Source: Pseudomonadota bacterium (GTDB taxonomy: Bacteria; Pseudomonadota; Gammaproteobacteria; Burkholderiales; Burkholderiaceae_F). Taken from it: a stretch of DNA of 64,000 nucleotides. The DNA lies in the NCBI GenBank assembly GCA_021825945.1, contig JAKAFN010000002.1, positions 41,915 through 105,914 of the forward strand, read 5' to 3'. Below the pieces are notes generated by a model, which was given only the letters and a program-made list of their open reading frames with translations, had not been told where the DNA came from and made no database searches. Shown here one piece after another: positions 9,161 through 58,917 of this stretch (position 1 is the first letter of the stretch; the number at the start of each line of letters is the position of its first letter). The translations under genes and the position numbers were made by a program.

Positions 9161-9909
9161 TCCGCAAAACCATCTACCGTGAAACGACCCGCGGGGCAAA
9201 TCCCCGGGTCGACCCGGCGGATTTCCAATAGCGTGACCGCGCCGGGATCTGCAGGGTCCATGAACCAGGTTTTGACGATCAGGCGCCGGCCGCCGAGGAC
9301 GGTCGGTCGACCATAGCGGGCGATCTTGAACAGTTTCCCGCTGCCGAGGAAAAAGCGTGCGGCGATCGGCCAGCCGGTCTTGTGATCGACCGTGACCGCG
9401 ATGCGCTGGTATGCACGATGCGTCGTCGTCGCGTGCAGATCGATCACCATTGCGTCGGCGCCGGCAGCCGCCGCTCCGCCTTGCCCTTGCGCTGCGACCG
9501 GCGCCCACGACGCCGTATACCTGCCGACCCAATGCGACCGGGCAAGATCGCCATAACTTGCCTGCCCCAGGATGCGCTCGATCGGCGTGATCGCGATCGT
9601 CCTGCTGCTATGCGGCATGCGTACCCAGACGTTCTGCCCCTGCATCAGGACGCGCTCCGACGCATAGCGCCCGCTCAGGACGTCGATTTCCGCGGCATCC
9701 CGTCCGATGCAGACGCGCATGTCTTCCACACCCCATTTCGCACTGGTCAGGCGGATGCGTAGCTGCCCCTCGGCATTGCCGACTCGAACCCGATCGATCG
9801 CGGCCAGCACGGCGGCGGGATCGGGGGAAGGGATGCCGGCGCCGTGCGCCGGCGGACCCCCGGCAATCAGCGCCGCCGTGACGATCCGGGAAATACGGCG
9901 GTGAGTCAT
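9157..9909 (-). CDS. LolA-like outer-membrane lipoprotein-sorting family protein
   Basis: Signal peptide, VLMQGQNVWVRMP, RILGQASYGDL, YQRIAVTVD, FFLGSGKLFK. Lies next to a LolCDE-type ABC. Start moved to the ATG just after the permease stop. Confidence 0.7.
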   Translation of the reverse strand: MTHRRISRIVTAALIAGGPPAHGAGIPSPDPAAVLAAIDRVRVGNAEGQLRIRLTSAKWGVEDMRVCIGRDAAEIDVLSGRYASERVLMQGQNVWVRMPHSSRTIAITPIERILGQASYGDLARSHWVGRYTASWAPVAAQGQGGAAAAGADAMVIDLHATTTHRAYQRIAVTVDHKTGWPIAARFFLGSGKLFKIARYGRPTVLGGRRLIVKTWFMDPADPGAVTLLEIRRVDPGICPAGRFTVDGFAE

Positions 9910-9910
9910 G

Positions 9911-11101
9911 TCATGTATGCCCGAGTTGATCAATGATGCTCATGCGCCGAACCACGCGCCCCGGAATGCAAGCGATCAGACCGCCGAGCGCGACGAATCC
10001 GAGAAACACCAGCAGCGCCGCCACGGGCGAGAAGACGATCTGCAACGGGTACCCGAGCGAGCGACCCGGAGGAGGCGGCATCGAAATGGCGGCGATGCTC
10101 ACCGCGACGGACAGGATCGCGGCCACCGCAATGCCGATCATCGATCCGACCCCCATCACCATCGCCCCCTCCATCGCCAAACTCGCCTGAATCGATCGCA
10201 TGGGAAACCCGATCGCCCGCAGCACGCCGATCTCGCGGATCCGCTCCATCACGCTCATCAGCAAGGCATTGGAAATCGAGAGCAGCACGACCACGATGAG
10301 GATCAGACCGAACACGGAAAAGATCACCCGGTAGATCGATACGACCTGACCGTAGAACGGATCGACTGCAAACCAGGGCTGCACCGCGAGGTCCGGAAAG
10401 GCGCGCCGCAAATCGCGCTCCATGGCGACGAGCCGATCGCCGTGCGTCAACACCACGACGACTCGGGAAGCACCATCGAGGGCCAGCAACGATCGCGCGG
10501 CCACCAGCGGAATCGTCACTCCGCGCCGATCCAGCGCAGGGATGCCGGTTCGATAGGTTCCGCGAACCGAAAAATCCATGGCATTCAGGACACCATCGCG
10601 ATTCGTCACCAGAACGGTGACCAGGTCGCCGGGATGGATGCGCAATGCCCTGGCGAGGTCCGCGGCCACGGTGATTCCGTTTTTGTCGCCATCGCCGAGG
10701 CCGGTGCCGGAAACCACCGGCAGGAACCCGGCATTCAGACGTGACTCTTTTTCGACATCGACGCCGCGCCCGACGAACGACCCCGTGCGATTCCCCGTCG
10801 CGAGCAGGCCCTCGAAATGGATGCGTTCCATGGCGAACCGGACGTCGGGGTCCTTCCGCAGGAATTCCGATATCCGGGCAGCCTGCGTTCCGGTCAGATC
10901 GCGGTCGGGCGCGGGAGATCGAATCTGCAGGTCGCCGGTTTCACCGTCGATGATCGACTGGCGCAACCCCGCGAAGGATGCCAGGACGAAACCGACGCTC
11001 AGCAGGATCGCTGCGACACCTCCCGCGACGACGGATATCGCGAGGAAGGATCGTCGCCGGTTGCGCAGCGTACTCCGGGCGGCATAGCGCATCACGTTCA
11101 T
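9911..11101 (-). CDS. ABC transporter permease, MacB/FtsX/LolE type
   Basis: RNRRRSFLAI N-terminus, one TM plus a large periplasmic loop, then SVMERIREIGVLRAIGF and three C-terminal TMs. ATGA overlap with the ATPase stop. Confidence 0.87.
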   Translation of the reverse strand: MNVMRYAARSTLRNRRRSFLAISVVAGGVAAILLSVGFVLASFAGLRQSIIDGETGDLQIRSPAPDRDLTGTQAARISEFLRKDPDVRFAMERIHFEGLLATGNRTGSFVGRGVDVEKESRLNAGFLPVVSGTGLGDGDKNGITVAADLARALRIHPGDLVTVLVTNRDGVLNAMDFSVRGTYRTGIPALDRRGVTIPLVAARSLLALDGASRVVVVLTHGDRLVAMERDLRRAFPDLAVQPWFAVDPFYGQVVSIYRVIFSVFGLILIVVVLLSISNALLMSVMERIREIGVLRAIGFPMRSIQASLAMEGAMVMGVGSMIGIAVAAILSVAVSIAAISMPPPPGRSLGYPLQIVFSPVAALLVFLGFVALGGLIACIPGRVVRRMSIIDQLGHT

Positions 11102-42477: not shown

Positions 42478-43983
42478 TTAGTAGTGATAGGCGGTCTCGC
42501 CGTGGTACGAGGTGTCGAGACCTTCGCGCTCCTCCTCTTCCTTGACGCGGATGCCCACGAGCATGTCGGCAACCTTGAACGAGATGAACGACACCGTCGC
42601 AGTCCACACCACCGTCAGGCCGACGGCCTTGGCCTGGATCAGCAGCTGGGCCAGGATGCCGGGATAGCCGGTCTTCATGGTGACCCAATCCTGCACGGAG
42701 CCCGGACCGCCCAGGCTGGGGTCGTTGAAGATGCCGGTGAGCAGCGCGCCGGCGATCCCGCCCAGCGCATGGACCCCGAACACGTCGAGTGCATCGTCGA
42801 CGCCGATCATCCGCTTGAGGCCGGTAACGCCCCAGAAGCACAGGGGGCCGACGAGCAGGCCGATGACGAACGCGCCGGCGATGCCGACGTTGCCGGCGGC
42901 GGGGGTGATCGCGACGAGGCCCGCCACGGCGCCCGACGCGGCACCGAGCATCGACGGCTTGCCCTTGACCATCCACTCGACGAACATCCACGACAGCACT
43001 GCCATGGCCGTCGCCAGGTAAGTGTTCATGAAGGCCAGCGCGGCAGAGCCGTTGGCTTCCAGCGCCGAGCCGGCATTGAACCCGAACCATCCGAACCACA
43101 GCAGCGAAGCCCCGATCATCGTCATGGTCAGACTATGGGGCGCCATCGATTCCTTGCCCAGACCGATCCGTTTGCCCAGCAGGATCGCGGCGACGAGCCC
43201 GGCAACCCCGGAGTTGATGTGCACCACGGTACCGCCCGCGAAGTCCAGGGCCCCCCATTGCCAGAGCAGACCGGCCTTGGCATTCATGGCATCGGCCACC
43301 TTGGCGCTCGTATAGGCGTCCGGCCCCTCGAAGAACCACACCATGTGTGCAATCGGCAGGTAGCTCAGCGTGAACCAGATCGTGATCGCGATCAGCACGG
43401 CGGAAAACTTGATCCGCTCGACGATCGCCCCCAACAACAGGCAACCCGTGATCGCCGCGAACGTGGCCTGGAACCCGACATAGACCAACTCCGGCAGCGG
43501 GGTGGCCTTGTCGAAGGTCGACGCCATCGAGAAGTTCCCCGTTGCCGGATCGAACGTGCCGTTCAGGAACAGGCGGCTGAACCCGCCGATGAACGGCGCA
43601 AGGCTGCCACTTCCTTCCGTAAACGCGAGACTGTAGCCGTACACGCACCAGAGAACCGTGATGAGGGAGAAGACCACCAGCACCTGCATCAGGACCGACA
43701 GCATGTTCTTGGTCCGCACCAGACCACCATAGAACAGCGCCAGGCCCGGAACGGACATCAGCAGCACCAGCGCGGTCGAGGTCAGCATCCAAGCCACGTC
43801 GCCCTTGTTCGGCGTCGGCGCCGGCGCTGCAGCGGGGGCTGCCGCCGGCGCAGGTGCGGCAACGGCAGCGGCTGCCACCGGCGCCGAGGAAGGCCCGTTG
43901 TCCGCCCAGGCCGGAGCCAAGCCGGCCACTCCCAGCACGGTCGCCGCCGCGACCCATGCAAGCCATTTCTTCAATCGTTTCAT
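42478..43983 (-). CDS. amtB: Ammonium transporter AmtB
   Basis: PGLALFYGGLVR, FQATFAAIT, LDFAGGTVVHINSG, WFGWFGFNAGS, GAVAGLVAITP, DDALDVFGVH; signal-like N-terminal extension. Confidence 0.97.
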   Translation of the reverse strand: MKRLKKWLAWVAAATVLGVAGLAPAWADNGPSSAPVAAAAVAAPAPAAAPAAAPAPTPNKGDVAWMLTSTALVLLMSVPGLALFYGGLVRTKNMLSVLMQVLVVFSLITVLWCVYGYSLAFTEGSGSLAPFIGGFSRLFLNGTFDPATGNFSMASTFDKATPLPELVYVGFQATFAAITGCLLLGAIVERIKFSAVLIAITIWFTLSYLPIAHMVWFFEGPDAYTSAKVADAMNAKAGLLWQWGALDFAGGTVVHINSGVAGLVAAILLGKRIGLGKESMAPHSLTMTMIGASLLWFGWFGFNAGSALEANGSAALAFMNTYLATAMAVLSWMFVEWMVKGKPSMLGAASGAVAGLVAITPAAGNVGIAGAFVIGLLVGPLCFWGVTGLKRMIGVDDALDVFGVHALGGIAGALLTGIFNDPSLGGPGSVQDWVTMKTGYPGILAQLLIQAKAVGLTVVWTATVSFISFKVADMLVGIRVKEEEEREGLDTSYHGETAYHY

Positions 43984-44007
43984 TTTCGTCGATTCCTTGT
44001 CCGGGGG

Positions 44008-44634
<627 letters not shown>

Positions 44635-44666
44635 CTATTCGGCATCCACCTGAACCCGATCCCGGC

Positions 44667-44897
44667 ATGGATACTCCCTCATTCCTGGAAGATCTGCAGC
44701 AGCGTCTGTCCGCGCTATTCGCCGCCACGCCGGCTGCCGACATTCAGCAAAACTTGAAGGCACTGCTCGTCCAGCAGTTCACCAAACTCGACCTCGTCAC
44801 GCGCGAGGAGTTCGACGTGCAACGCGCCGTGCTGGAGAAGGCAACGGAACGCATCGACGCCCTGGAGGCGCGCGTGGCCGAACTCGAAAAGCGCTGA
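44667..44897 (+). CDS. ubiK: Ubiquinone biosynthesis accessory factor UbiK (YqiC)
   Basis: 76 aa; KLDLVTREEFDVQRAVL and a coiled-coil tail. Typical position divergent from glnK. Confidence 0.87.
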   Translation: MDTPSFLEDLQQRLSALFAATPAADIQQNLKALLVQQFTKLDLVTREEFDVQRAVLEKATERIDALEARVAELEKR

Positions 44898-44969
44898 GCG
44901 GGCATGCCGTTCGGCGGCACGACCGGTCCTGAGTTCGGTCGCGTACCGCGGCCCGCAACCGACCAACCT

Positions 44970-45048
44970 CGTCATCGCGAAGCCCCACCGACCGTGTGGT
45001 GATCCAGGGAACGCCTGGATTGCTTCCGGCTGCGCCCTCGCAATGACG
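44970..45048. repeat. Short nested-palindromic intergenic element (REP/RIME-like), single copy in window
   Basis: Outer arms CGTCATCGCGA / TCGCAATGACG, inner arms ATCCAGG / CCTGGAT and GAAGC / GCTTC. Resembles the proteobacterial GTCATTGCGA...TGGATTGCTTC...CTCGCAATGAC repeat. Confidence 0.6.
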
Positions 45049-45208
45049 GTGGTTTGCCGTTGACGGCCGCCGGCACGTTCTCCGGGGGCATGCGAGAGCG
45101 CTACCGCGCCCGGTCAGGTACATTTGGGGTTTTGGGTCGATACTCCGGCCCTCCATCCTCCTCGCCCAACCGATCCGACGGCGCTCATCGCCCACGATTT
45201 CGCCTTTC

Positions 45209-46738
45209 ATGACGCTTGCAGTCGTCCGCAGTCGCGCCCTCTCCGGCATGCTCGCGCCGGAAGTGACGATCGAGGTCCATCTGGCAAACGGTCTGCCAGC
45301 ATTTTCCCTGGTTGGACTGCCCGATGCGGAAGTACGGGAAGCGCGGGAGCGCGTGCGGGCGGCGCTACTCAATTGCAAGTTCGATTTCCCGGCCCGCCGC
45401 ATCACGGTGAACATGGCACCCGCCGGACTCCCGAAGGAATCCACGCGCTTCGACCTGCCGATCGCCATCGGCATCCTCGCCGCCAGCGGACAACTGCCGA
45501 CGCGTGCATTGGACCAGTTCGAGTTCGTGGGGGAACTGTCATTGTCCGGCGAGCTGCGCCCCATCACCGGCACGGTCGCGATGGCGTATGCCGTTTCCCG
45601 CAGCGTCCAGAAGCGCGCGCCGCGCGGCTTCATCCTGCCGCGGGAGAACGCCGACGAAGCCGCCCTCGTCGGCGACGTCACGGTATACCCCGCGAAGGAT
45701 CTTCGACAAGTGGTTTCGCATCTGCATCACGCGGCGGGCGACACCGAGGCGGGAAAGCTCGCCATACATTTTGCGCAGGTACGGCTCACCCCGCCGATCT
45801 ACCCGGATTTCGCGGACGTGAAAGGGCAGGCCGCGGCCAAGCGTGCACTGGAAATCGCCGCTGCCGGCGGCCATAGCGTGATCCTGGTCGGGCCGCCGGG
45901 CACCGGAAAATCGATGCTCGCGCAGCGCCTCCCGGGCATTCTTCCGCCCATGGACGTGGACGAGGCGCTCGAATCAGCGGCTGCATTGAGTCTCGTCGGA
46001 AAATTCGCGCCGCAGCGTTGGGCGACCCGCATGTTCCGCGCCCCGCATCACAGCGCCAGTGCCGCCGCGCTGGTCGGCGGCGGCGCCCAAGCGCTGCCGG
46101 GCGAAATCTCCCTCGCCCACCATGGCGTACTGTTCCTCGACGAACTGCCGGAGTTCGACCGCCGGGTGCTGGAATCCCTGCGCGAACCGCTGGAGACCGG
46201 CAGGATCACCATCGCCCGGGCGCAGCGCCACGTCGAGTACCCGGCCCGATTTCAGCTGATTGCCGCCATGAATCCCTGTCCCTGCGGCTACCACGGTCAT
46301 CCACAGATTCCTTGCAGTTGCACGCCGGAGATGGTTTCGCGCTACCAGGACCGCATCAGCGGCCCCCTGCTCGACCGAATCGACATGCGGGTCGACGTGC
46401 CGGCACTCACGCCGGATGAACTGACCAGCCTGCCCGACGGCGAATCGACGCAACGCATGGCGCGCCGTGTGGCCATCGCCCGCACGGTGGCGATGCAGCG
46501 CCAAGGAAAGAGCAACGACGCCTTGACCTCATCGGAGGTCGAACGCGTCTGCCGCCCCGAAGGCGCCGTGAAACAGTTGCTGCACGCCGCGACCACCCGG
46601 CTCGGGTGGTCGGCACGGGCATACAACCGCGTACTGAAGGTGGCGCGGACAATCGCGGATCTGGAAGACGCCGAAACGATCAACGCGAAACATATCGCGG
46701 AAGCAATCCAGTATCGCCGATCGCTGCGGGAAACGTAG
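45209..46738 (+). CDS. comM: YifB/ComM Mg-chelatase-related AAA+ ATPase
   Basis: EVHLANGLP, VGLPD, RITVNMAPA, GPPGTGKS, FRAPHHS, GVLFLDE, AMNPCPCG, ISGPLLDRID. Confidence 0.92.
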   Translation: MTLAVVRSRALSGMLAPEVTIEVHLANGLPAFSLVGLPDAEVREARERVRAALLNCKFDFPARRITVNMAPAGLPKESTRFDLPIAIGILAASGQLPTRALDQFEFVGELSLSGELRPITGTVAMAYAVSRSVQKRAPRGFILPRENADEAALVGDVTVYPAKDLRQVVSHLHHAAGDTEAGKLAIHFAQVRLTPPIYPDFADVKGQAAAKRALEIAAAGGHSVILVGPPGTGKSMLAQRLPGILPPMDVDEALESAAALSLVGKFAPQRWATRMFRAPHHSASAAALVGGGAQALPGEISLAHHGVLFLDELPEFDRRVLESLREPLETGRITIARAQRHVEYPARFQLIAAMNPCPCGYHGHPQIPCSCTPEMVSRYQDRISGPLLDRIDMRVDVPALTPDELTSLPDGESTQRMARRVAIARTVAMQRQGKSNDALTSSEVERVCRPEGAVKQLLHAATTRLGWSARAYNRVLKVARTIADLEDAETINAKHIAEAIQYRRSLRET

Positions 46739-52128: not shown

Positions 52129-52730
52129 AGCGGCGGCGGCTGCAATTCCTGCCGTCATCCGCCCCCTCGCCGCTCGCTCGCGGGGAACGTGTCTCGGCGA
52201 CCACCCTGCGCGGCGCCGCGCGCCGGGAACAAGTGCTGCGGCCGGTACACGCGCCCTTCATCTGGGGAACGCTCGGCGCCGCGTTCCTGCTCGACCTGCT
52301 GCCCTGGGGAAGGGCACTCTGGGTTCCGGATTTCCTCGCACTTGCCCTCGTCTTCTGGAACGTCCATCAACCGCGACGGGTCGGCATGGCCGCCGCCTTC
52401 GCGTTCGGCCTGCTGATGGATGTCCATGACGGCGCGCTGCTGGGTGAGCATGCGCTCGCCTACACGCTGCTCTCCTACGGTGCGATCACGTTCCACCGGA
52501 GAATCCGCTGGTTTTCGGTGATCAACCAATGCGTCTACGTGCTGGGCCTGCTGCTGGTTGCCCAGCTGGCCTCGCTGGCGGTGCGCGTTTGGGTGGGAGG
52601 CGTATCCCGGGACTGGTGGATTTCCCTGTCGGCCAGTCTGTTCGGGGCGGCCCTCTGGCCGCTGGCAACCAAATTCCTGCTCGCCCCGCAACGGCGCCCA
52701 GGAAAACGCGACGACACCCGCCCGTTATAG
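52125..52730 (+). CDS. mreD: Rod shape-determining protein MreD
   Basis: VPDFLALALVFW, GLLMDVH, GEHALAY, APQRRP tail. ATGA overlap with mreC. Confidence 0.93.
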   Translation: MKRRRLQFLPSSAPSPLARGERVSATTLRGAARREQVLRPVHAPFIWGTLGAAFLLDLLPWGRALWVPDFLALALVFWNVHQPRRVGMAAAFAFGLLMDVHDGALLGEHALAYTLLSYGAITFHRRIRWFSVINQCVYVLGLLLVAQLASLAVRVWVGGVSRDWWISLSASLFGAALWPLATKFLLAPQRRPGKRDDTRPL

Positions 52731-52767
52731 CCGGACGCCTGGGTCGGCACCGCGTCGAACCTCGGCA

Positions 52768-53994
52768 TCAGAACTTGTAGAGCCCCTCCAGTGCGAACGA
52801 CACCATGGTGTTATTGCGCGTTCCCGACGACTCCAGGAACACGGCATTGCTGGCATGGTCGCCGCGCACTTCGGCACGCAGTTCGACGTGCTCCGTCTTC
52901 AACCAAGACAGCGTGGCGGTGAACTCGCGGTAGGTCGTCGACTGGCCGGCGTAAGGTTGGGCCGGATCGATACAAGCCCCACCGGACGCACAGCCGGCCG
53001 TGCCCAGGAAATGGAAGCCGTTGCGGTCCTCGAAGTTCTCGCCCCGCAACGCCAATCGCCACTGCGGCGTGAACAGATAGGTGGCATACAGTGCAAAACC
53101 GTCGTACCGCGCCAAGACGGGGGTCGCTCCGGTATAGGCCTGATAATTGTCCTGGCTGACATTCAAATATTCGGCGCCGAAACTCAGCGGATCACTGACG
53201 GTGTAGGTCACCACGGCATCGAAGCTGTTGCGCTCACCATAGGGCCCCTTGGCGTCGGCCTCGGCAGGCGTCGGAACGGCGTTGGCCGTGGACAGCGCCT
53301 GTCCGTTGAGATCGGATAGCGTGATGCTCAACGCCTTCGTCGGCGTGATCACCGTCCCGAACTCGATCGTTTTCGCAGGAGTCGTGGCCGAGACCTGATC
53401 CCAGCCGTTGTTGACGCCGCCGATCCAGGTGATCTCGTCATTTTCGACGTAGGTAAGGCGAACGCCGGTATGGGTGAACGGCACCGCGCCGAAAAGGATC
53501 GAGCGCGACGTATTGTTGTTGGCCGGCGCCCAGATCACCTCGTAGCTTTGCAAGGTGGTGAACTTTCCGGCGATCACCGTGAACGGGCCCGAGGCGTACT
53601 GCCCGTAGGCCTGCGTCACGTCGAACTGATTATTACTTGGGCCGGTGTTGTAGGGGTAGGACGAGAAGATCGACGAATCGGAACCGGCCATCACGTTGAT
53701 CAGGCCACCGAAACCCTCTTTCGGCTGCTTCGCGATCTGTAGCGCCGCCTGGTTCAACGTGAAGGAATTCTGTTGCGTGGTGAATACCCGAACGGCGGAA
53801 GGATTCGTGCGGTCGATATATTTGTACGAACCGTCCAGATAACCGCTGACGGCGATCCCGGACGCACTCAGGATCTTGTCTATCGTTGCCGGGACATCCG
53901 TAGTGGTTGGTCCCGTCTGGTCCTCCGCAAACACCAAGCCCGGCGTGAGCAGCGCAAGCGCCACACTCGCAGCCCGCAGCGTGCGATCAAGCAT
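52768..53994 (-). CDS. Outer-membrane beta-barrel porin (putative BBP2/OmpL-like family), paralog A
   Basis: Signal peptide, AKQPKEGFG, QAYGQY, AGKFTT, THTGVR, NNGWD, C-terminal EGLYKF. Confidence 0.8.
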   Translation of the reverse strand: MLDRTLRAASVALALLTPGLVFAEDQTGPTTTDVPATIDKILSASGIAVSGYLDGSYKYIDRTNPSAVRVFTTQQNSFTLNQAALQIAKQPKEGFGGLINVMAGSDSSIFSSYPYNTGPSNNQFDVTQAYGQYASGPFTVIAGKFTTLQSYEVIWAPANNNTSRSILFGAVPFTHTGVRLTYVENDEITWIGGVNNGWDQVSATTPAKTIEFGTVITPTKALSITLSDLNGQALSTANAVPTPAEADAKGPYGERNSFDAVVTYTVSDPLSFGAEYLNVSQDNYQAYTGATPVLARYDGFALYATYLFTPQWRLALRGENFEDRNGFHFLGTAGCASGGACIDPAQPYAGQSTTYREFTATLSWLKTEHVELRAEVRGDHASNAVFLESSGTRNNTMVSFALEGLYKF

Positions 53995-54221
53995 GTCCCC
54001 TCCATCCCTTTACGTCGATGGTATGCACCCTGGACGTCAACCGCGGGCGCCCATTGCGGCACCAACATGCACTGCGGTGGGAATCGCCGTGTACGACGTC
54101 GCGCCGGAGAAATAGTTATGTGATGTTTCCGGCGGAGGAAATATATACGGGCTTCCCGTAGAAATGGGAGGGGTTGGGAATGAAAAGCGCGCGTCGTTGC
54201 GAAAAAGTTACATTCACGGCA

Positions 54222-54252
54222 ACCGCCCCTTCCGCATGACGGAAAGGGCGGT
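54222..54252 (-). terminator. Hairpin immediately after porin B stop
   Basis: ACCGCCCCTTCCG-CATGA-CGGAAAGGGCGGT, a 13-bp stem with one non-Watson-Crick position. Related in sequence to the 42435 palindrome. Confidence 0.6.
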
Positions 54253-54258
54253 CCAGGT

Positions 54259-55491
54259 TTAGAACTTGTACAGTCCCTCGACGGCGTACGTGGTCAGGGT
54301 CTTGCTGAATCCTCCGGACGCAACCGTGAAGACGGGGTTGGTGGCATGGTCGCCGCGGATTTCGCCGCGCAGCTCGAAGCTGTCGGACTCCAGCCAGGAC
54401 AGCGTCGCCGTGGCTTCCTTGTAGGTGGTATCGGGGGTGCCGAAGTGGAATCCGCTCTGGTCGTTGAAGTTTTCCGCGCGCAGCGCCAAGCGCCATTTCG
54501 GCGTGAACATGTACGTCGCATACAAAGCAAAGCCGTTGTACTTCGCCGTGATCAGATTGTTGCTATAGAGCGGATTCAGATCGGTCGAGCCCGGCATCAA
54601 CTGCGCAAAGTTGCGCTGGTTCACGTTCACGTAGTCCAGGCCCAGGGTCAGCGGGTCGATCGGCGTGTAGTTCACCACCAAGTTGAGGAGGTTGCGATCC
54701 CCGGTCTGCACGACATTGGTCGGACCGTTGAGCATCGTGATGCTCGTGCCCGCCCCACCGCCGACGGCGGAGTTCAGCTTGCCGTTGTAATCCGAAATCG
54801 TGAAGTTCACGGACTTGAGCGGCGCAACGGTGGCCGCCACCTCGACGGTCTTGCCGCCATTGACGCCGCCCGAAACCTGATCCCATCCATTGATGACCCC
54901 ACCGATCAGGGTAACGGCGTCGTTCAACGCATAATTCACACGCACCCCGGTTTCCGTAAACGGCTCGGACGTATAGAGGATCGAGCGGCTGGTGTTGAAG
55001 TTCGATGGCTGCCAGATCACCTCCATTCCGGGGATCGAGGTGAATTTCCCCGCCATCACCGTCACCGGGCCGTGCGCATACTGACCGTATGCCTGCGTGA
55101 GATCGACCTGCTGATAACCGCTACCGGTGGTGTTGAACGGATACGATTCAAAAGCCTTGGCATCGAGACCGGCAGTGACGTTGACCAACCACCCGAAGCC
55201 CTCCTTCGGCTGCTTGGCCACCTGCAGGCCGAACTGATGCAGCGCGAGATTGCTGTTCTGACAGTCCGCCACGCGATCGCAAAAGCCGTTTTGCAGATCG
55301 CGATTGGCGTGGTTGTAGACGACGTCGAAGTAACCGCTGGTCGTGATTCCCGATGCATTCAGAATCTGCGCCATCGTCGGCACCGCCGGCGACGATGATG
55401 ACGACGACGACGTCGCTGTATCCGCCGATGCCATGCCGGGAACCGCAAACACGGCCGCTACGCTCGCCGCAAGCAGCATGCGATGAAACAT
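54259..55491 (-). CDS. Outer-membrane beta-barrel porin (putative BBP2/OmpL-like family), paralog B
   Basis: GGAGG RBS before ATG 55491; signal peptide ending ASA; same conserved blocks as paralog A; ends EGLYKF. Confidence 0.82.
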   Translation of the reverse strand: MFHRMLLAASVAAVFAVPGMASADTATSSSSSSSPAVPTMAQILNASGITTSGYFDVVYNHANRDLQNGFCDRVADCQNSNLALHQFGLQVAKQPKEGFGWLVNVTAGLDAKAFESYPFNTTGSGYQQVDLTQAYGQYAHGPVTVMAGKFTSIPGMEVIWQPSNFNTSRSILYTSEPFTETGVRVNYALNDAVTLIGGVINGWDQVSGGVNGGKTVEVAATVAPLKSVNFTISDYNGKLNSAVGGGAGTSITMLNGPTNVVQTGDRNLLNLVVNYTPIDPLTLGLDYVNVNQRNFAQLMPGSTDLNPLYSNNLITAKYNGFALYATYMFTPKWRLALRAENFNDQSGFHFGTPDTTYKEATATLSWLESDSFELRGEIRGDHATNPVFTVASGGFSKTLTTYAVEGLYKF

Positions 55492-55546
55492 ACACCCCTC
55501 CTTCTGTTCGATAAACGCGGGTTGCAAGAAACACGGACAACCCTTA

Positions 55547-55562
55547 CGCAAGGCTCGTGCCA
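55547..55562 (-). promoter_or_regulatory. Sigma54 (-24/-12) promoter of porin B
   Basis: Minus strand TGGCACGAGCCTTGCG matches TGGCAC-N5-TTGC, about 55 nt upstream of the ATG. Confidence 0.85.
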
Positions 55563-55672
55563 ATCCGATGCGAGCCGAACGAAGCGCGAGGAGGCGTGCC
55601 ACTGGGACACCCTGAACACGGAACCGAAATGAAGGGAAACCGAAAAAGAACGGTCCCACAAAAAACGCACGC

Positions 55673-55723
55673 CGCACCGTCACGGTGCAGCAAAGGAATC
55701 CGTACGTGCCCTACACTAGTGCC
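55673..55723. promoter_or_regulatory. Tandem NtrC-like boxes upstream of the porin B sigma54 promoter
   Basis: CGCACCGTCACGGTGCA (55673-55689, GCAC-N7-GTGC) and weaker TGCCCTACACTAGTGCC (55707-55723). Centres are 34 bp apart, 110-160 bp upstream of -24. Confidence 0.68.
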
Positions 55724-55738
55724 CTGTGACGCCCCTGG

Positions 55739-56065
55739 TCAGCGGACGACCGGCTCGTCATCGCAGGCTTCCTGCCCCGATCTGCCACAAGCCGTATAGC
55801 AGAACCCGGCATCTTCCTTGCACCATTCCGCGTTGTACAACTGGTGCTGCATCACGACATGCCGATGCGGAAGCGTGCTCCGAACGCCGGTACCGCAGCG
55901 CGCGCCGCCGTCGACTCGGACTGCGCCGTTTTCCCCGTTCGGACCCTGCTGCGCGGCGATGGCGACAGGATGCGGCGCACTTGCACAACCGGTCTGCATG
56001 GTCGCGAACATCAGGATCGCGGCGAACTGGCCCATCAATTTTGCTTTACCGCCCACAGCGAACAC
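55739..56065 (-). CDS. Small Cys-rich putative lipoprotein, unknown function
   Basis: AGGAG RBS 6 nt before the GTG. Basic then hydrophobic N-terminus ending MQTGC (weak lipobox, Cys27), with 5 further Cys. 108 aa. Confidence 0.5.
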   Translation of the reverse strand: MFAVGGKAKLMGQFAAILMFATMQTGCASAPHPVAIAAQQGPNGENGAVRVDGGARCGTGVRSTLPHRHVVMQHQLYNAEWCKEDAGFCYTACGRSGQEACDDEPVVR

Positions 56066-56166
56066 GAGACACTCCTATTTGATCGAGACTTGCCTCGCAT
56101 CGAACCCGTTCGGCGTACGCGGAACGAGCATGTTCGCCCGCACGCCGCCCCCGGGCCGACACGAGG

Positions 56167-56192
56167 AAGAAAAACGGCGCAACCCGCGCCGT
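56167..56192 (-). terminator. Intrinsic terminator downstream of the DUF1801 gene
   Basis: Minus strand ACGGCGC-GGGTT-GCGCCGT followed by TTTTCTT. Confidence 0.65.
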
Positions 56193-56331
56193 CTCGATCT
56201 CGAGAACGAAGCGCACCCCGAATCGGTTGACCGCGCCATGGATTTCCTGCCGTCATCACGACGCCGGCAGGGCGCGGAATGGATGACCCGCGAATATGGG
56301 GTCGAGCCCGGATGGAACGGAAACGGCCGCC

Positions 56332-57324: not shown

Positions 57325-58917
57325 GTGGTCTTTTCGTTCTTCAAGAAAGACGGCAAGGAAAGCGGCGGCCGATCGCCAGCGGCGAACACCTCGTTCCGCA
57401 CCACGCGCACGGACGCGTCCCGGCCGACCACGGGCCGGACGGCCTCGGCCGACCGCATCGGAAGCGGATTGGCGGAAGCCAGGACCACCCGTCCCGGATT
57501 CGCCACCCCCGGCAACCCGCTGCCGGACCATCACGCGGCAAAATCCGTCGCCCTGGCAACGGCAGCCAAGATCGATGCCATCGAGTCTGAAATGGCGCGC
57601 GATTTCCTGCGGGCGCGCACCGCCCTGCCACCGGAAGCGCCGCCCGCCGACGCATCGGCGGCGGCCGTCCCCTCGAGCGACGGCAGCATGCCAACCGACC
57701 TGCAGGCCTATGCCGCCGGCCTGACCTCCGACACCACCCAGCCCATGGTTCCCGCCGAAACGGACGACGACCAGGATCCCGATGCCACGCTCATAGGCAG
57801 CGTGAATGCGATCGAAGTGGGCAGCAACTCCTCTTCGTTGCTTGACGAAACGGCGATCCTGTTTGCCAACGGACAGTCCGATTCCGCCGAACGAGGGCTC
57901 CACGGGGCGCTTACGTCCGACAGCCTCGGCGCCGCGACCGAACGGGGCTGGCGCATGCTGCTGGAACTCCAGAATCAGCGCGGGTCGCATGCAGTGTTCG
58001 CGGAAACCGCGGCGCGTTTCACGCGGCAGCACCGGATTTCGGCTCCCGCTTGGTTCGACTATGCGGCCGCCGGGAGGCCCCTTGCAACCGCACCCGACAC
58101 AGCCGCTGCGCAACCACCGGCGGACGGCCAGGGCGTCAATCCCGCCGCGCGCGCCGCGGCGGAAGCCATACCCATCGTCGTGCTGCCGCCGACGATCGAC
58201 GCCGGCATCGTCAAGCCGCTCGAGGAGCTCAAATCCCTCGCGACCAGCCATCCCAGGCTGCTGCTCGACGTCGGCGCCACGCGATCGGTCAACATGGTCG
58301 GCGCCGAGCTACTGCTGCGCGTCTTCAACGCCTTCCGGCGTGCGCCGCACGAGCTGCAATTCGCGGGCATCGATGCCCTGCAGACGGCGCTGCGCCGCGC
58401 CATCGAGCCCGGCCGCAGAGATCCATCCGACGCGGCCTGGATGCTGCTGATGGAAGTGCAGCGCCTGCAGAACCGGCAGGCCGATTTCGAGGAAACCGGC
58501 ATCCAATACTGCATCACCTACGAAGTTTCGCCGCCATCCTGGGAACCGCCGCCGCCCAACATCCGGCTCTGCCAGCGCCCCCCGTCGCCGCTCCGTCCGG
58601 CGGCGCCGCCGCCCACATCACCCATGACGATTGCGCCCGACGGCGCGTTGGAATGGCGCGGCGAAATCCTGGCCGAGGACGATCCCCAAATCAACCGCCT
58701 GATCCTTGCCGCGCGCGACCGCAAGCCGGTGACCGTCGACTGCAGCGGGCTCCGCCGGATGGCGTTTTCCCCTGCGTCGGCCCTGCTCGGCCATCTTTGC
58801 AAACTGCAGCAGGGAGGGGTTGCCGTCGAGTTCCGCAACGTCAATGCGCTGGTGGCGGCACTCTGGCAACTGCTCGGCATCCCCTCGGTTGCCCAAGTCG
58901 GGATGCGCCTCGAATAA
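57325..58917 (+). CDS. Conserved protein with helical/TPR-like region and STAS-like domains
   Basis: MVFSFFKK start, LDETAILFANGQ, ITYEVSPPSWE, C-terminal VDCSGLRRMAFSPAS and FRNVNALVAALWQLLG (STAS-like). Located upstream of hslV. Confidence 0.68.
   Translation: MVFSFFKKDGKESGGRSPAANTSFRTTRTDASRPTTGRTASADRIGSGLAEARTTRPGFATPGNPLPDHHAAKSVALATAAKIDAIESEMARDFLRARTALPPEAPPADASAAAVPSSDGSMPTDLQAYAAGLTSDTTQPMVPAETDDDQDPDATLIGSVNAIEVGSNSSSLLDETAILFANGQSDSAERGLHGALTSDSLGAATERGWRMLLELQNQRGSHAVFAETAARFTRQHRISAPAWFDYAAAGRPLATAPDTAAAQPPADGQGVNPAARAAAEAIPIVVLPPTIDAGIVKPLEELKSLATSHPRLLLDVGATRSVNMVGAELLLRVFNAFRRAPHELQFAGIDALQTALRRAIEPGRRDPSDAAWMLLMEVQRLQNRQADFEETGIQYCITYEVSPPSWEPPPPNIRLCQRPPSPLRPAAPPPTSPMTIAPDGALEWRGEILAEDDPQINRLILAARDRKPVTVDCSGLRRMAFSPASALLGHLCKLQQGGVAVEFRNVNALVAALWQLLGIPSVAQVGMRLE

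What the first reader, a model, noticed from the sequence alone, without database searches (positions are those of the whole stretch)
52768..55730. Tandem paralogous porins, one wired to sigma54 with a paired NtrC-type enhancer
Seen: two ~410-aa barrels share long blocks (AKQPKEGFG, TQAYGQYA, YATY.FTP.WRLALR.ENF, TATLSWL, RGDHA.N.VF, EGLYKF). Paralog B has TGGCAC-N5-TTGC plus two NtrC-like boxes, then a hairpin. I found no sigma54 motif in the 264-nt gap before paralog A. They lie ~9 kb from glnK-amtB, which has the same promoter type. Inference: a nitrogen-starvation outer-membrane channel (ammonium, urea, amides or amino acids) with a differently regulated duplicate. The substrates of this family are poorly defined.
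Basis: partly seen in the sequence, partly recalled or inferred. Interest (0 to 1): 0.6.

Follow-up and report, generated by a model that had tools for sequence, protein, structure and literature searches.

The report
Nitrogen-starvation porin pair, split from amtB
Two neighbouring outer-membrane channel genes are duplicates of a gene that in related bacteria leads the ammonium-uptake operon, and one copy keeps the nitrogen-starvation switch, so it probably lets ammonium through the outer membrane, though this has not been tested.

Summary
Two minus-strand genes (A 52768-53994, B 54259-55491) encode 408- and 410-aa proteins that are 48% identical. Both are Pfam BBP2 (PF07642) porins, and B models as a 16-stranded barrel. 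B has a perfect TGGCAC-N5-TTGC site 57 nt before its ATG and one strong NtrC-type palindrome (11 of 12). The second "box" is weak (8 of 12), and the strong one also looks like the terminator of the upstream gene. A has no sigma-54 site.

In 52 of 75 evaluable related loci the homologue is the first gene of a porin-glnK-amtB operon. 49 of 50 of those carry a sigma-54 site, with NtrC-like boxes at two fixed positions 31 bp apart. A and B are sister duplicates nested among these operon leaders. The window's own glnK-amtB has the ancestral ubiK-comM neighbourhood but lacks the porin. In two sister genomes a further B-type copy sits between kdpA and kdpB, which hints at a monovalent-cation (NH4+/K+) channel.

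Ammonium-limitation-induced BBP2 porins and amt-linked porins are already reported anecdotally (Kuenenia, Formosa, Flavobacteriales). This is therefore a new member of a known but biochemically untested kind. No expression data exist.

The parts
54259..55491 (-). Porin B, 410 aa. BBP2 family, with a Sec-type signal peptide (read by eye: ...PGMASA/DT) and a C-terminal ...YKF. The model is a 16-stranded barrel.
   Evidence: Pfam PF07642 170.8 bits. AF2 pLDDT 82.5, pTM 0.82, 16 strands. Foldseek top hits are 16-stranded porins.
52768..53994 (-). Porin A, 408 aa. A BBP2 paralogue 48% identical to B, with an extra Cys-containing loop (residues about 333-355).
   Evidence: Pfam PF07642 187.4 bits. 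BLASTP against B. Sister to B in the tree.
55548..55562 (-). Sigma-54 promoter element TGGCAC-N5-TTGC of porin B. The -12 GC lies 57 nt before the ATG.
   Evidence: Perfect match. Conserved in the 4 B orthologues that have an upstream region. The same motif type is found in 49 of 50 glnK-linked homologues.
55673..55689 (-). NtrC-like palindrome TGCACCGTGACGGTGCG (box 2, 11 of 12), centred 119 nt upstream of the T of TGGCAC. It is also the stem of a terminator-like hairpin followed by a T-run.
   Evidence: score and position. (conserved as CGCACCG-N3-YGGTGCG). (hairpin -16.4 kcal/mol, T-run).
55707..55723 (-). Weak NtrC-like box 1 (GGCACTAGTGTAGGGCA, 8 of 12), 34 bp upstream of box 2.
   Evidence: Spacing varies between 29 and 34 bp among orthologues.
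54221..54253 (-). 15-bp GC-rich hairpin directly after the stop codon of porin B, without an adjacent U-tract. It separates B from A.
   Evidence: -31.3 kcal/mol, z -4.47. Compensatory changes in the stem among 4 genomes.
53995..54220 (-). Remainder of the B-A spacer: no sigma-54 motif, an invariant T-rich block (about 54180-54217) and an AT-rich TATATAT (54141-54147). The promoter of A is unidentified.
55739..56065 (-). Co-directional upstream gene for a 108-aa Cys-rich protein with no family match. Its terminator would coincide with box 2.
   Evidence: no Pfam or NCBIfam hit. Conserved upstream of B in 3 relatives.
42478..44346 (-). glnK (44008-44346) and amtB (42478-43983), the ammonium-uptake operon that the porin leads in related genomes.
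   Evidence: Pfam P-II and Ammonium_transp.
44439..44453 (-). Sigma-54 promoter element TGGCACACAACTTGC of glnK-amtB.
   Evidence: Weak NtrC-like boxes (9 of 12) at -129 and -173.
44667..46738 (+). ubiK-like BMFP gene (44667-44894) and comM/yifB (45209-46738). They are the conserved divergent neighbours of porin-glnK-amtB operons elsewhere.
   Evidence: Pfam PF04380 and Mg_chelatase. comM lies upstream in 45 of 52 glnK-linked loci, and ubiK is present in 49 of 79 loci.

Best explanation
Porin B is a nitrogen-starvation-inducible outer-membrane channel. It most likely passes ammonium (NH4+, and perhaps K+) to the periplasm, where AmtB takes it up.

Proposed regulation of B: under nitrogen limitation, phosphorylated NtrC binds the upstream palindrome at 55673-55689, possibly helped by the weak site at 55707-55723. 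It then activates RpoN-RNA polymerase at TGGCAC-N5-TTGC (55548-55562).

Origin: B and A descend by duplication from the leader gene of a sigma-54/NtrC-driven porin-glnK-amtB operon that is widespread in related Burkholderiales. In this lineage the porin left the operon, while glnK-amtB kept its own sigma-54 promoter.

Porin A is a diverged copy behind a strong hairpin. It has no sigma-54 motif, so it is probably expressed from an unidentified promoter, or by partial read-through, under other conditions.

Shown here: gene structure, family, fold, motifs, their conservation, operon linkage in relatives, and the tree. Inferred: NtrC binding, nitrogen control, the substrate, and how A is regulated.
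For: Family and fold:
- Both proteins match PF07642.
- The B model is a 16-stranded barrel that resembles solved porins.

Promoter:
- B carries a perfect sigma-54 motif, one of 2 in the window and one of 11 TGGCAC-N5-TTGC sites in the genome. My own composition-based estimate, not a tool result, gives about 5.5 expected by chance (list).
- Other sites of this kind precede nifH, nifV, ureA and glnK.
- The motif is kept in all 4 B orthologues that have an upstream region.
- rpoN is present.
- NtrC matches TIGR01818 at 676.9 bits against a cut-off of 558.6.

Linkage in relatives:
- 52 of 75 evaluable loci have glnK directly downstream of the porin, and 45 also show amtB.
- 49 of 50 of these with readable upstream DNA carry TGGCAY-N5-NTGC, against 2 of 22 unlinked paralogues.
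- 2 further loci have the order glnK-amtB-porin.

Enhancer:
- Across the 55 anchored upstream regions scanned (53 from relatives plus the window's B and glnK), 86 NtrC-like sites score at least 9 of 12, against 6.35 in shuffles. They peak at -102 (42 sites) and -71 (28 sites).
- B has an 11-of-12 site at -119.
- It is the only site of that strength within 40-230 nt upstream of any of the 62 sigma-54-like sites in the genome.

Origin:
- (B, A) are sisters (SH-aLRT 91), and together they are sister to a same-genus glnK-linked porin (support 99), nested among glnK-linked porins.
- The window's glnK-amtB/ubiK/comM layout equals the common layout minus the porin.

Cation hint:
- A B-type copy lies between kdpA and kdpB in 2 of 11 genus genomes that have kdpB.
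- One distant locus has the porin divergent from kdpABC.
- The mature proteins are acidic, net -8 and -12, and the family median is -5.

Published precedent (passages read):
- A BBP2 porin is highly upregulated under ammonium limitation in Kuenenia (PMC7438415).
- A porin in an operon with an ammonium transporter is very abundant in Formosa B (PMC6246565).
Against: - The two window genes are not in an operon with glnK-amtB; they lie 8-11 kb away.
- The strong NtrC-like box is equally well read as the intrinsic terminator of the upstream gene. Sites of that quality are not enriched genome-wide: 10 against 8 in a shuffle (7 at 11 of 12 plus 1 at 12 of 12).
- The box positions (-119 and -153) differ from the -102 and -71 geometry of related promoters. 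The second box is weak, and its spacing varies by 5 bp among orthologues.
- 7 of the 13 other genus genomes gave no porin match. Four of these are at least 88% complete (97%, 94%, 90% and 88%). So the gene is dispensable.
- The Formosa authors proposed peptides, not ammonium, as the substrate.
- The kdp link rests on one insertion event plus one adjacency.
Confidence: 0.7

Rival explanations
1. B is nitrogen-regulated through sigma-54 and NtrC, but the channel imports organic nitrogen (peptides, amino acids, urea or amides) rather than ammonium.
For: The Formosa B authors interpreted their amt-linked, highly induced porin as a peptide channel (PMC6246565). A 16-stranded barrel of this size could pass small organics; Foldseek hits include the substrate-specific porins OprP, DcaP and chitoporin. 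The genome also has a sigma-54-preceded urease operon.
Against: The conserved partners are glnK and amtB specifically, in 52 of 75 loci. Among the neighbours I annotated there was no peptide, amino-acid or urea transporter. The additional copy is recruited to the K+ pump operon, which fits a small cation and not organics.
Confidence: 0.15
2. B is sigma-54-dependent, but the palindrome at 55673-55689 is simply the terminator of the upstream 108-aa gene. Activation then uses another enhancer-binding protein or unrecognised sites, and the signal need not be nitrogen.
For: The hairpin plus T-run is scored as terminator-like (-16.4 kcal/mol). The upstream gene is co-directional and needs a terminator. 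The genome has 5 enhancer-binding proteins. 11-of-12 sites are not enriched genome-wide. The box geometry differs from that of relatives.
Against: The stem sequence matches both NtrC half-sites, which a terminator has no reason to do. Homologous promoters of the same porin clade carry NtrC-type boxes and drive glnK-amtB, a canonical NtrC target. No NifA-type TGT-N10-ACA is present near B. A dual terminator and enhancer role is possible.
Confidence: 0.1
3. A and B are general diffusion porins, and the sigma-54 motif is a non-functional relic of the ancestral operon promoter. Both genes would then be expressed constitutively.
For: They are the only BBP2 genes in a small genome. I did not search for other porin families. 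The motif alone is expected about 5.5 times by chance in this genome (my estimate).
Against: The motif and the 5' leader are conserved in 4 genomes while flanking spacer sequence varies. No sigma-70-like promoter was found in 52600-56200 (0 found, 1.2 expected). Family-wide, the motif tracks the glnK-linked clade, 49 of 50 against 2 of 22.
Confidence: 0.05

Closest known systems
Kuenenia stuttgartiensis KSMBR1_3177, a BBP2-domain hypothetical porin (Front Microbiol 2020, PMC7438415; passage read)
   Same: It has the same Pfam domain (BBP2). It was reported as highly upregulated under ammonium limitation, and the authors proposed that it raises ammonium influx.
   Different: It is from a planctomycete. 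No sigma-54/NtrC wiring, tandem duplication or amtB linkage appears in the passage I read. I did not compare the sequences.
Formosa B porin FORMB_11920 in an operon with an ammonium transporter (ISME J 2018, PMC6246565; passages read), and the PII-Amt-OmpL-like gene association of Flavobacteriales and marine viral contigs (ISME J 2020, PMC8115048; passages read)
   Same: An outer-membrane porin, called OmpL-like, is genetically coupled to glnK/amt and co-induced with nitrogen-assimilation genes. The substrate is untested.
   Different: These are Bacteroidota, with the gene order glnK-amtB-porin. The Formosa authors favour peptides as the substrate. The 2020 paper states that the association was found only in Flavobacteriales, whereas here it is shown in 54 of 75 betaproteobacterial-type loci, mostly with the porin first and a sigma-54 promoter.
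nlmA-glnK-amtB operon of Herbaspirillum seropedicae (BMC Microbiol 2011, PMC3023670; passages read)
   Same: It is from a member of the Burkholderiales. The leader gene encodes a membrane-associated protein made under nitrogen limitation. The operon is NtrC-dependent and strongly induced. The leader-gene position matches that of the porin in the loci.
   Different: I could not obtain the NlmA sequence, so whether it is a BBP2 protein is untested. The paper calls it a protein of unknown function, 'most probably in the periplasm'. Notes from earlier scans suggest that many such leader genes belong to another barrel family (TorF/TIGR02001); I did not check this.
NtrC-activated porin-glnA transcription unit of Methylomonas sp. 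DH-1 (iScience 2025, PMC12799797; passages read), and NtrC-dependent porins of Burkholderia cenocepacia H111 (PLoS One 2017, PMC5491218; table passage read)
   Same: These are experimentally mapped NtrC regulons that include porin genes.
   Different: The porin families are not stated in the passages I read, and the genes are not linked to glnK-amtB in the same way.
Starvation-induced specific porins such as PhoE and OprP (recalled knowledge; the OprP structure 2o4v is Foldseek rank 2)
   Same: The logic is the same: a 16-stranded outer-membrane channel is co-regulated with the high-affinity inner-membrane uptake system for the limiting nutrient.
   Different: They are anion (phosphate) channels under PhoB control. 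Sequence identity is 12-13% only, and they belong to a different family.

Membership tests
Pfam BBP2 (PF07642), putative beta-barrel porin-2, OmpL-like | Profile match above the gathering score over most of the model | tested here: met
   A: 187.4 bits, model positions 2-333 of 339. B: 170.8 bits, positions 2-339 of 339. The cut-off is 26.2.
Pfam BBP2 (PF07642), putative beta-barrel porin-2, OmpL-like | Outer-membrane beta-barrel architecture: signal peptide, closed barrel, C-terminal aromatic residue | tested here: met
   The AF2 model has 16 strands, pLDDT 82.5 and pTM 0.82. Foldseek probability is 1.00 to solved 16-stranded porins. The N-terminal hydrophobic stretch with AxA and the terminal F were read from the sequences; no signal-peptide predictor was run.
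Sigma-54 (RpoN)-dependent promoter | GG and GC elements exactly 10 nt apart within TGGCAC-N5-TTGC, upstream of the gene and on its strand | tested here: met
   55548-55562 on the minus strand is a perfect match, 57 nt before the ATG.
Sigma-54 (RpoN)-dependent promoter | rpoN and enhancer-binding proteins encoded in the genome | tested here: met
   One Sigma54_DBD match at 217 bits. Five full Sigma54_activat proteins.
Sigma-54 (RpoN)-dependent promoter | Evolutionary conservation of the element | tested here: met
   Present in 4 of 4 B orthologues with the lipo108-type upstream region. Present in 49 of 50 glnK-linked homologues against 2 of 22 unlinked ones.
Sigma-54 (RpoN)-dependent promoter | Transcription start about 12 nt downstream of the GC element, dependent on RpoN | not testable with these tools
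   No RNA run holds this DNA.
NtrC (NR-I) enhancer | NtrC orthologue present | tested here: met
   TIGR01818 676.9 bits (cut-off 558.6) and NF008176 629.7 bits (cut-off 620).
NtrC (NR-I) enhancer | Two or more TGCACC-N5-GGTGCA sites about 100-150 bp upstream, phased about 3 helical turns apart | tested here: inconclusive
   There is one 11-of-12 site at -119 and one 8-of-12 site at -153. The spacing is 34 bp here and 29 bp in two orthologues. The strong site overlaps a terminator-like hairpin. Related promoters do show a phased pair at -102 and -71.
NtrC (NR-I) enhancer | NtrC binding and nitrogen-dependent activation | not testable with these tools
   This needs a footprint, ChIP or expression data.
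Porin-glnK-amtB (outer-membrane barrel plus ammonium transporter) operon | Porin co-transcribed with, or adjacent to, glnK/amtB | tested here: not met
   In the window the porins are 8-11 kb from glnK-amtB, with gatCAB-type and mreBCD genes in between. The feature is met in 52 of 75 related loci, including one genome of the same genus.
Porin-glnK-amtB (outer-membrane barrel plus ammonium transporter) operon | Descent from operon-leader porins | tested here: met
   The (A,B) clade is sister to a glnK-linked porin of the same genus (SH-aLRT 99) and is nested among glnK-linked porins (quick search, no bootstrap).
NlmA of Herbaspirillum seropedicae | Sequence homology to NlmA | not testable with these tools
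   No NlmA sequence could be fetched.

The most novel reading that the evidence does not exclude
BBP2 porins of this clade are dedicated monovalent-cation (NH4+/K+) channels of the outer membrane. On this reading cells plug them as a module into whichever high-affinity uptake regulon needs them. Here that is NtrC/sigma-54 for ammonium (porin-glnK-amtB, porin B) and KdpDE for potassium (the B-type copy inserted between kdpA and kdpB in sister genomes). The tandem A/B pair would then be a snapshot of one channel being split between regulons. In an acid-mine-drainage bacterium, where ammonia exists only as NH4+ and proton leakage is costly, a tightly gated cation channel would be the rate-limiting first step of nitrogen acquisition.
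Probability: 0.3. Interest if true: 0.65.

Novelty: new member of a known kind. Interest (0 to 1): 0.45.

Why it matters
- How ammonium crosses the outer membrane is usually taken for granted. A conserved, starvation-controlled channel that leads most glnK-amtB operons of a large group of soil and mine-drainage Burkholderiales suggests that the step is rate-limiting and regulated, especially at low pH, where only NH4+ is present.
- The family has no solved structure and no measured substrate.
- The A/B pair and the kdp-inserted copy give natural variants of one channel under different controls. These are convenient material for electrophysiology and for testing NH4+/K+ selectivity.
- For annotation, these 'hypothetical protein' or 'putative porin' genes can be flagged as candidate members of the nitrogen regulon.

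Tried and rejected
- Expression data: the look-up of sequencing runs listed no RNA holder. It listed only 4 DNA runs from one mine-drainage study, one of which may be the source.
- Solved relatives by sequence: only NanC at E 0.027. This was not used.
- NCBIfam: no family for A, B or the 108-aa neighbour.
- NifA as the activator: no TGT-N10-ACA near B; the window has one match, at 57860.
- A second TGGCAC at about 55598-55603 is not conserved in orthologues and lacks a -12 TGC. I rejected it as a promoter.
- 5' leader hairpin of B: not more stable than shuffles, z 0.11.
- Porin remnant between glnK and comM: the gap holds an intact ubiK/BMFP gene instead.
- Same-locus hypothesis: I asked whether the B-A pair replaced the glnK-amtB part of an ancestral operon in place. 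I rejected this because the same-genus porin-glnK-amtB operon lies in a different, RND-efflux context.
- KdpE-type control of A: the T-rich repeats in the B-A spacer have a period of about 20 nt, against 11 nt in the genome's own kdp upstream region (compared by eye). No claim is made.
- Weak NtrC-like matches (8 and 9 of 12) lie 31 bp apart directly before A's ATG. There is no room for a sigma-54 promoter downstream, so I treated them as chance.
- Unlinked paralogues in other MAGs sit beside PLD-like, Exo_endo_phos, cytochrome b561 and EF-G-like genes, or Usp/DUF6763 genes, and mostly lack the sigma-54 motif. They give no nitrogen link.
- Literature:
  - 'PF07642' gave 0 papers.
  - Searches for porin with amtB/glnK/sigma-54, ompL with amtB, kdp operon with porin, and nlmA found no description of sigma-54/NtrC-driven BBP2-glnK-amtB operons in Betaproteobacteria.
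  - They also found no description of a porin inside a kdp operon.
  - Subscription papers (for example the original H. seropedicae orf1-glnK-amtB paper) and supplements were not seen.


Full report
**1. What is in the sequence**

On the minus strand lie two tandem genes. Porin A spans 52768-53994 (408 aa) and porin B spans 54259-55491 (410 aa, counted from the ATG at 55491). They are separated by 264 nt.

- Both match Pfam BBP2, 'putative beta-barrel porin-2, OmpL-like' (PF07642), at 187.4 and 170.8 bits against a cut-off of 26.2. No NCBIfam model matches either one.
- They are the only two BBP2 genes in the window's genome, which has 2.53 Mb in 31 contigs, 65.5% G+C and 100% completeness.
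- An AlphaFold2 model of B, built on a 75-sequence alignment, has mean pLDDT 82.5 and pTM 0.82 and shows 16 strands.
- Foldseek places the model among solved 16-stranded porins (BpsOmp38, OprP, DcaP, Omp32, OmpF) with TM-scores of 0.55-0.66 and at most 15% identity.
- A profile search of PDB sequences gave only NanC at E 0.027, so the family has no solved member.

**2. The promoter region of B**

TGGCACGAGCCTTGC lies at 55548-55562 on the minus strand, with its -12 GC 57 nt before the ATG.

- It is one of only two perfect TGGCAC-N5-TTGC matches in the 64-kb window. The other, at 44439-44453, precedes glnK.
- Genome-wide there are 27 TGGCAY-N5-TTGC sites, and 11 of them have TGGCAC. From base composition I estimate about 5.5 TGGCAC-type sites by chance; this is my own arithmetic, not a tool result. 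The motif alone is therefore not decisive.
- Other instances precede nifH, nifV, ureA and glnK.
- The genome encodes RpoN. It has five full enhancer-binding proteins, among them NtrC (TIGR01818, 676.9 bits) and NifA (TIGR01817, 724.4 bits).

Upstream of B there are two NtrC-like sequences.

- Box 2, TGCACCGTGACGGTGCG (55673-55689), matches the TGCACC-N5-GGTGCA consensus at 11 of 12 positions. I recalled that consensus from memory. The box is centred 119 nt upstream of the T of TGGCAC.
- Box 1, GGCACTAGTGTAGGGCA (55707-55723), matches at only 8 of 12.

In the three other genomes of the genus whose B gene has the same upstream neighbour, several elements are conserved.

- The sigma-54 motif, the leader and box 2 (as CGCACCG-N3-YGGTGCG) are all kept.
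- Box 1 scores 8-9 of 12 by my reading.
- The box-to-box distance is 34 or 29 bp.

Two facts temper the 'paired NtrC enhancer' reading.

- Box 2 followed by GTGCGTTTTTTG is scored as an intrinsic-terminator-like site (hairpin -16.4 kcal/mol). The upstream 108-aa gene (55739-56065) is co-directional and needs a terminator.
- Genome-wide, 10 sites reach at least 11 of 12 against 8 in a block shuffle.

On the other side, box 2 is the only site of that quality within 40-230 nt upstream of any of the 62 relaxed sigma-54-like sites. I estimate about 0.05 expected by chance. No NifA-type TGT-N10-ACA is nearby.

**3. Paralogue A**

- No sigma-54 motif with up to one mismatch lies in the spacer, and none lies upstream of A in the two other genomes scanned there.
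- Directly after B's stop codon there is a 15-bp hairpin (54221-54253; -31.3 kcal/mol, z -4.47). Its stem shows compensatory changes among four genomes, and it has no adjacent U-tract.
- The consensus scan found no sigma-70-type promoter in the region (0 found, 1.2 expected).
- The spacer is almost invariant among these close relatives, so conservation does not locate A's promoter.
- How A is expressed is therefore open. It could use its own unrecognised promoter or partial read-through.

**4. Relatives give the decisive context**

A scan of one-genome-per-species contigs returned 79 loci, mostly uncultured soil Burkholderiales or 'Betaproteobacteria' MAGs.

- In 52 of the 75 loci where the downstream side can be judged, glnK follows the porin directly on the same strand, and in 45 amtB is also seen.
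- Two further loci have the order glnK-amtB-porin.
- Four loci could not be judged because the contigs are cut.
- comM lies divergently upstream in 45 of the 52 linked loci, and a ubiK/BMFP gene lies between comM and the porin in 49 of the 79 loci.
- Of the 50 glnK-linked porins with readable upstream DNA, 49 carry TGGCAY-N5-NTGC within about 330 nt of the start; the exception is L090. Only 2 of 22 unlinked paralogues do (L078, L095).
- I anchored 55 upstream regions on that motif (53 from relatives plus the window's B and glnK). They hold 86 sites with at least 9 of 12 matches to the NtrC consensus, against 6.35 in shuffles. The sites concentrate at -102 (42 sites) and -71 (28 sites), that is, 31 bp or three helical turns apart.
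- This is the classical NtrC/sigma-54 architecture, and it drives an operon whose last two genes are canonical NtrC targets.
- Three genomes reached through the genome search show the same porin-glnK-amtB order. One of them belongs to the window's own genus.

**5. Origin of the pair**

- The window's glnK-amtB (44346..42478, minus strand) has its own sigma-54 site. It is flanked by ubiK (44667-44894, PF04380) and comM (45209-46738). This is exactly the common layout minus the porin.
- In a maximum-likelihood tree of 77 porins (quick search, SH-aLRT only), B with its orthologue and A with its orthologues are sisters (support 91).
- Together they are sister to the glnK-linked porin of the same genus (support 99), and the whole group is nested among glnK-linked porins.
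- Both stems are long (0.42 and 0.59 substitutions per site).
- A and B therefore arose by duplication, within this genus lineage, of an operon-leader porin.
- The same-genus genome that keeps a porin-led operon has it as a second glnK-amtB copy in a different, RND-efflux neighbourhood. The B-A pair is therefore not that operon with its tail replaced.
- The porin is patchy in the genus. 7 of the 13 other genomes gave no match (their completeness is 97, 94, 90, 88, 84, 60 and 53%), and two gave only weak partial matches.
- Both paralogues retain most family-conserved columns, A 92 of 103 and B 89 of 103. Both are acidic, with net charge -12 and -8.

**6. An unexpected extra: a kdp-linked copy**

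- In two other genomes of the genus, contigs break inside a B-type gene because there are two near-identical copies.
- One copy has the sigma-54 upstream region and is followed by A and mreD.
- The other lies between kdpA and kdpB, with only a short spacer and no promoter motif.
- In the other nine genus genomes with kdpB, including the window's own, eight show kdpA and kdpB directly adjacent, with no porin between them. In the ninth (G008, 64% complete) the kdpA and kdpB matches are fragmentary.
- One distant locus (L100) has the porin divergent from kdpABC.
- K+ and NH4+ are similar-sized monovalent cations (established knowledge).
- Recruitment of the same channel type to the high-affinity K+ pump operon favours a small-cation channel over a channel for organic nitrogen. 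However, it rests on one insertion event plus one adjacency.

**7. What is already known**

All papers below were read as passages only.

- In Formosa B a porin in an operon with an ammonium transporter reached 10% of protein abundance when carbon was plentiful. The authors proposed peptide uptake (PMC6246565).
- A PII-Amt-OmpL-like association was noted in Flavobacteriales and in viral contigs, with the substrate unknown and the statement that it occurs only in Flavobacteriales (PMC8115048).
- In Herbaspirillum seropedicae the NtrC-dependent nlmA-glnK-amtB operon has a membrane-associated leader protein of unknown function (PMC3023670). I could not test whether NlmA is a BBP2 protein.
- NtrC regulons with porins have been mapped in Methylomonas (a porin-glnA unit; PMC12799797) and in Burkholderia cenocepacia (PMC5491218).
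- Earlier notes of this scan describe outer-membrane barrels of several families in front of amt genes in other phyla. They are unchecked leads and agree with the general picture.
- My searches found no description of sigma-54/NtrC-driven BBP2-glnK-amtB operons in Betaproteobacteria or of a porin inside a kdp operon. Subscription papers and supplements were not seen.

**8. Verdict**

Ammonium, or NH4+/K+, is the best-supported substrate.
- Nothing has been measured. No RNA data exist for this DNA.
- The DNA runs that hold it are labelled mine drainage metagenome. The nearest named protein is a 'putative porin' of an unclassified Burkholderiales isolate at 87% identity.
- The acid-habitat argument, that only NH4+ is available and a cation pore is costly, is my inference.
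- I class the finding as a new member of a known but biochemically uncharacterised kind. It has two modestly novel twists: detachment and duplication of the channel gene, and a sister copy inside kdp.

Noticed in passing
L020/L026 (one genus genome) and L015/L023 (another); compare own genome C27:66562-70657: A near-identical copy of porin B sits between kdpA and kdpB in two genomes of the genus. In the window's genome and seven other genus genomes kdpA and kdpB are directly adjacent; in one more (G008) the kdp matches are fragmentary.
   Followed up: yes
window 44347-45208: The gap between glnK and comM holds an intact ubiK/BMFP gene (44667-44894, plus strand) and the glnK sigma-54 promoter. 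This is the layout found around porin-glnK-amtB operons elsewhere, but without the porin.
   Followed up: yes
window 54180-54217 and 54141-54147 (minus strand): The B-A spacer contains an invariant T-rich block (GAATGTAAC...TTTTCATTC) and an AT-rich TATATAT that stands out in a 65% G+C genome. They may be the control region of porin A. A comparison by eye with the genome's kdp upstream region gave no clear shared box.
   Followed up: partly
window 55739-56065 (minus strand): A 108-aa Cys-rich protein with a lipoprotein-like N-terminus and no Pfam or NCBIfam match. It is conserved directly upstream of porin B in three relatives (82-89% identity).
   Followed up: partly
own genome, contig C1 about 9182-10792, 21556, 36599: The genome carries nifA (TIGR01817, 724 bits). 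Sigma-54 sites precede nifH-like and nifV-like genes, so this small mine-drainage betaproteobacterium is probably a diazotroph. A sigma-54 site just after nifA precedes a 293-aa secreted protein of unknown kind.
   Followed up: partly
own genome, contig C31 about 246524-246732: Two divergent sigma-54-like sites share one NtrC-like box (10 of 12). One of them precedes a ureA-like gene, which suggests an NtrC-controlled urease locus.
   Followed up: no
L036, L044, L046, L050, L052, L065, L074, L075 and others: Unlinked BBP2 paralogues in other MAGs recur next to PLD-like, Exo_endo_phos, cytochrome b561 and EF-G-like genes and lack sigma-54 motifs. This is a second conserved context, with unknown meaning.
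   Followed up: partly
L133 (a genus genome, 64% complete): The kdpA and kdpB matches are fragmentary, with stretches of much lower identity. This could be decay or an assembly problem in the one genus genome that keeps a porin-led glnK-amtB operon.
   Followed up: no
window 54024-54071 (minus strand): Two weak NtrC-like matches (9 and 8 of 12) lie 31 bp apart, immediately before the ATG of porin A. They are too close to the start for a downstream sigma-54 promoter. They may be chance or a relic.
   Followed up: partly
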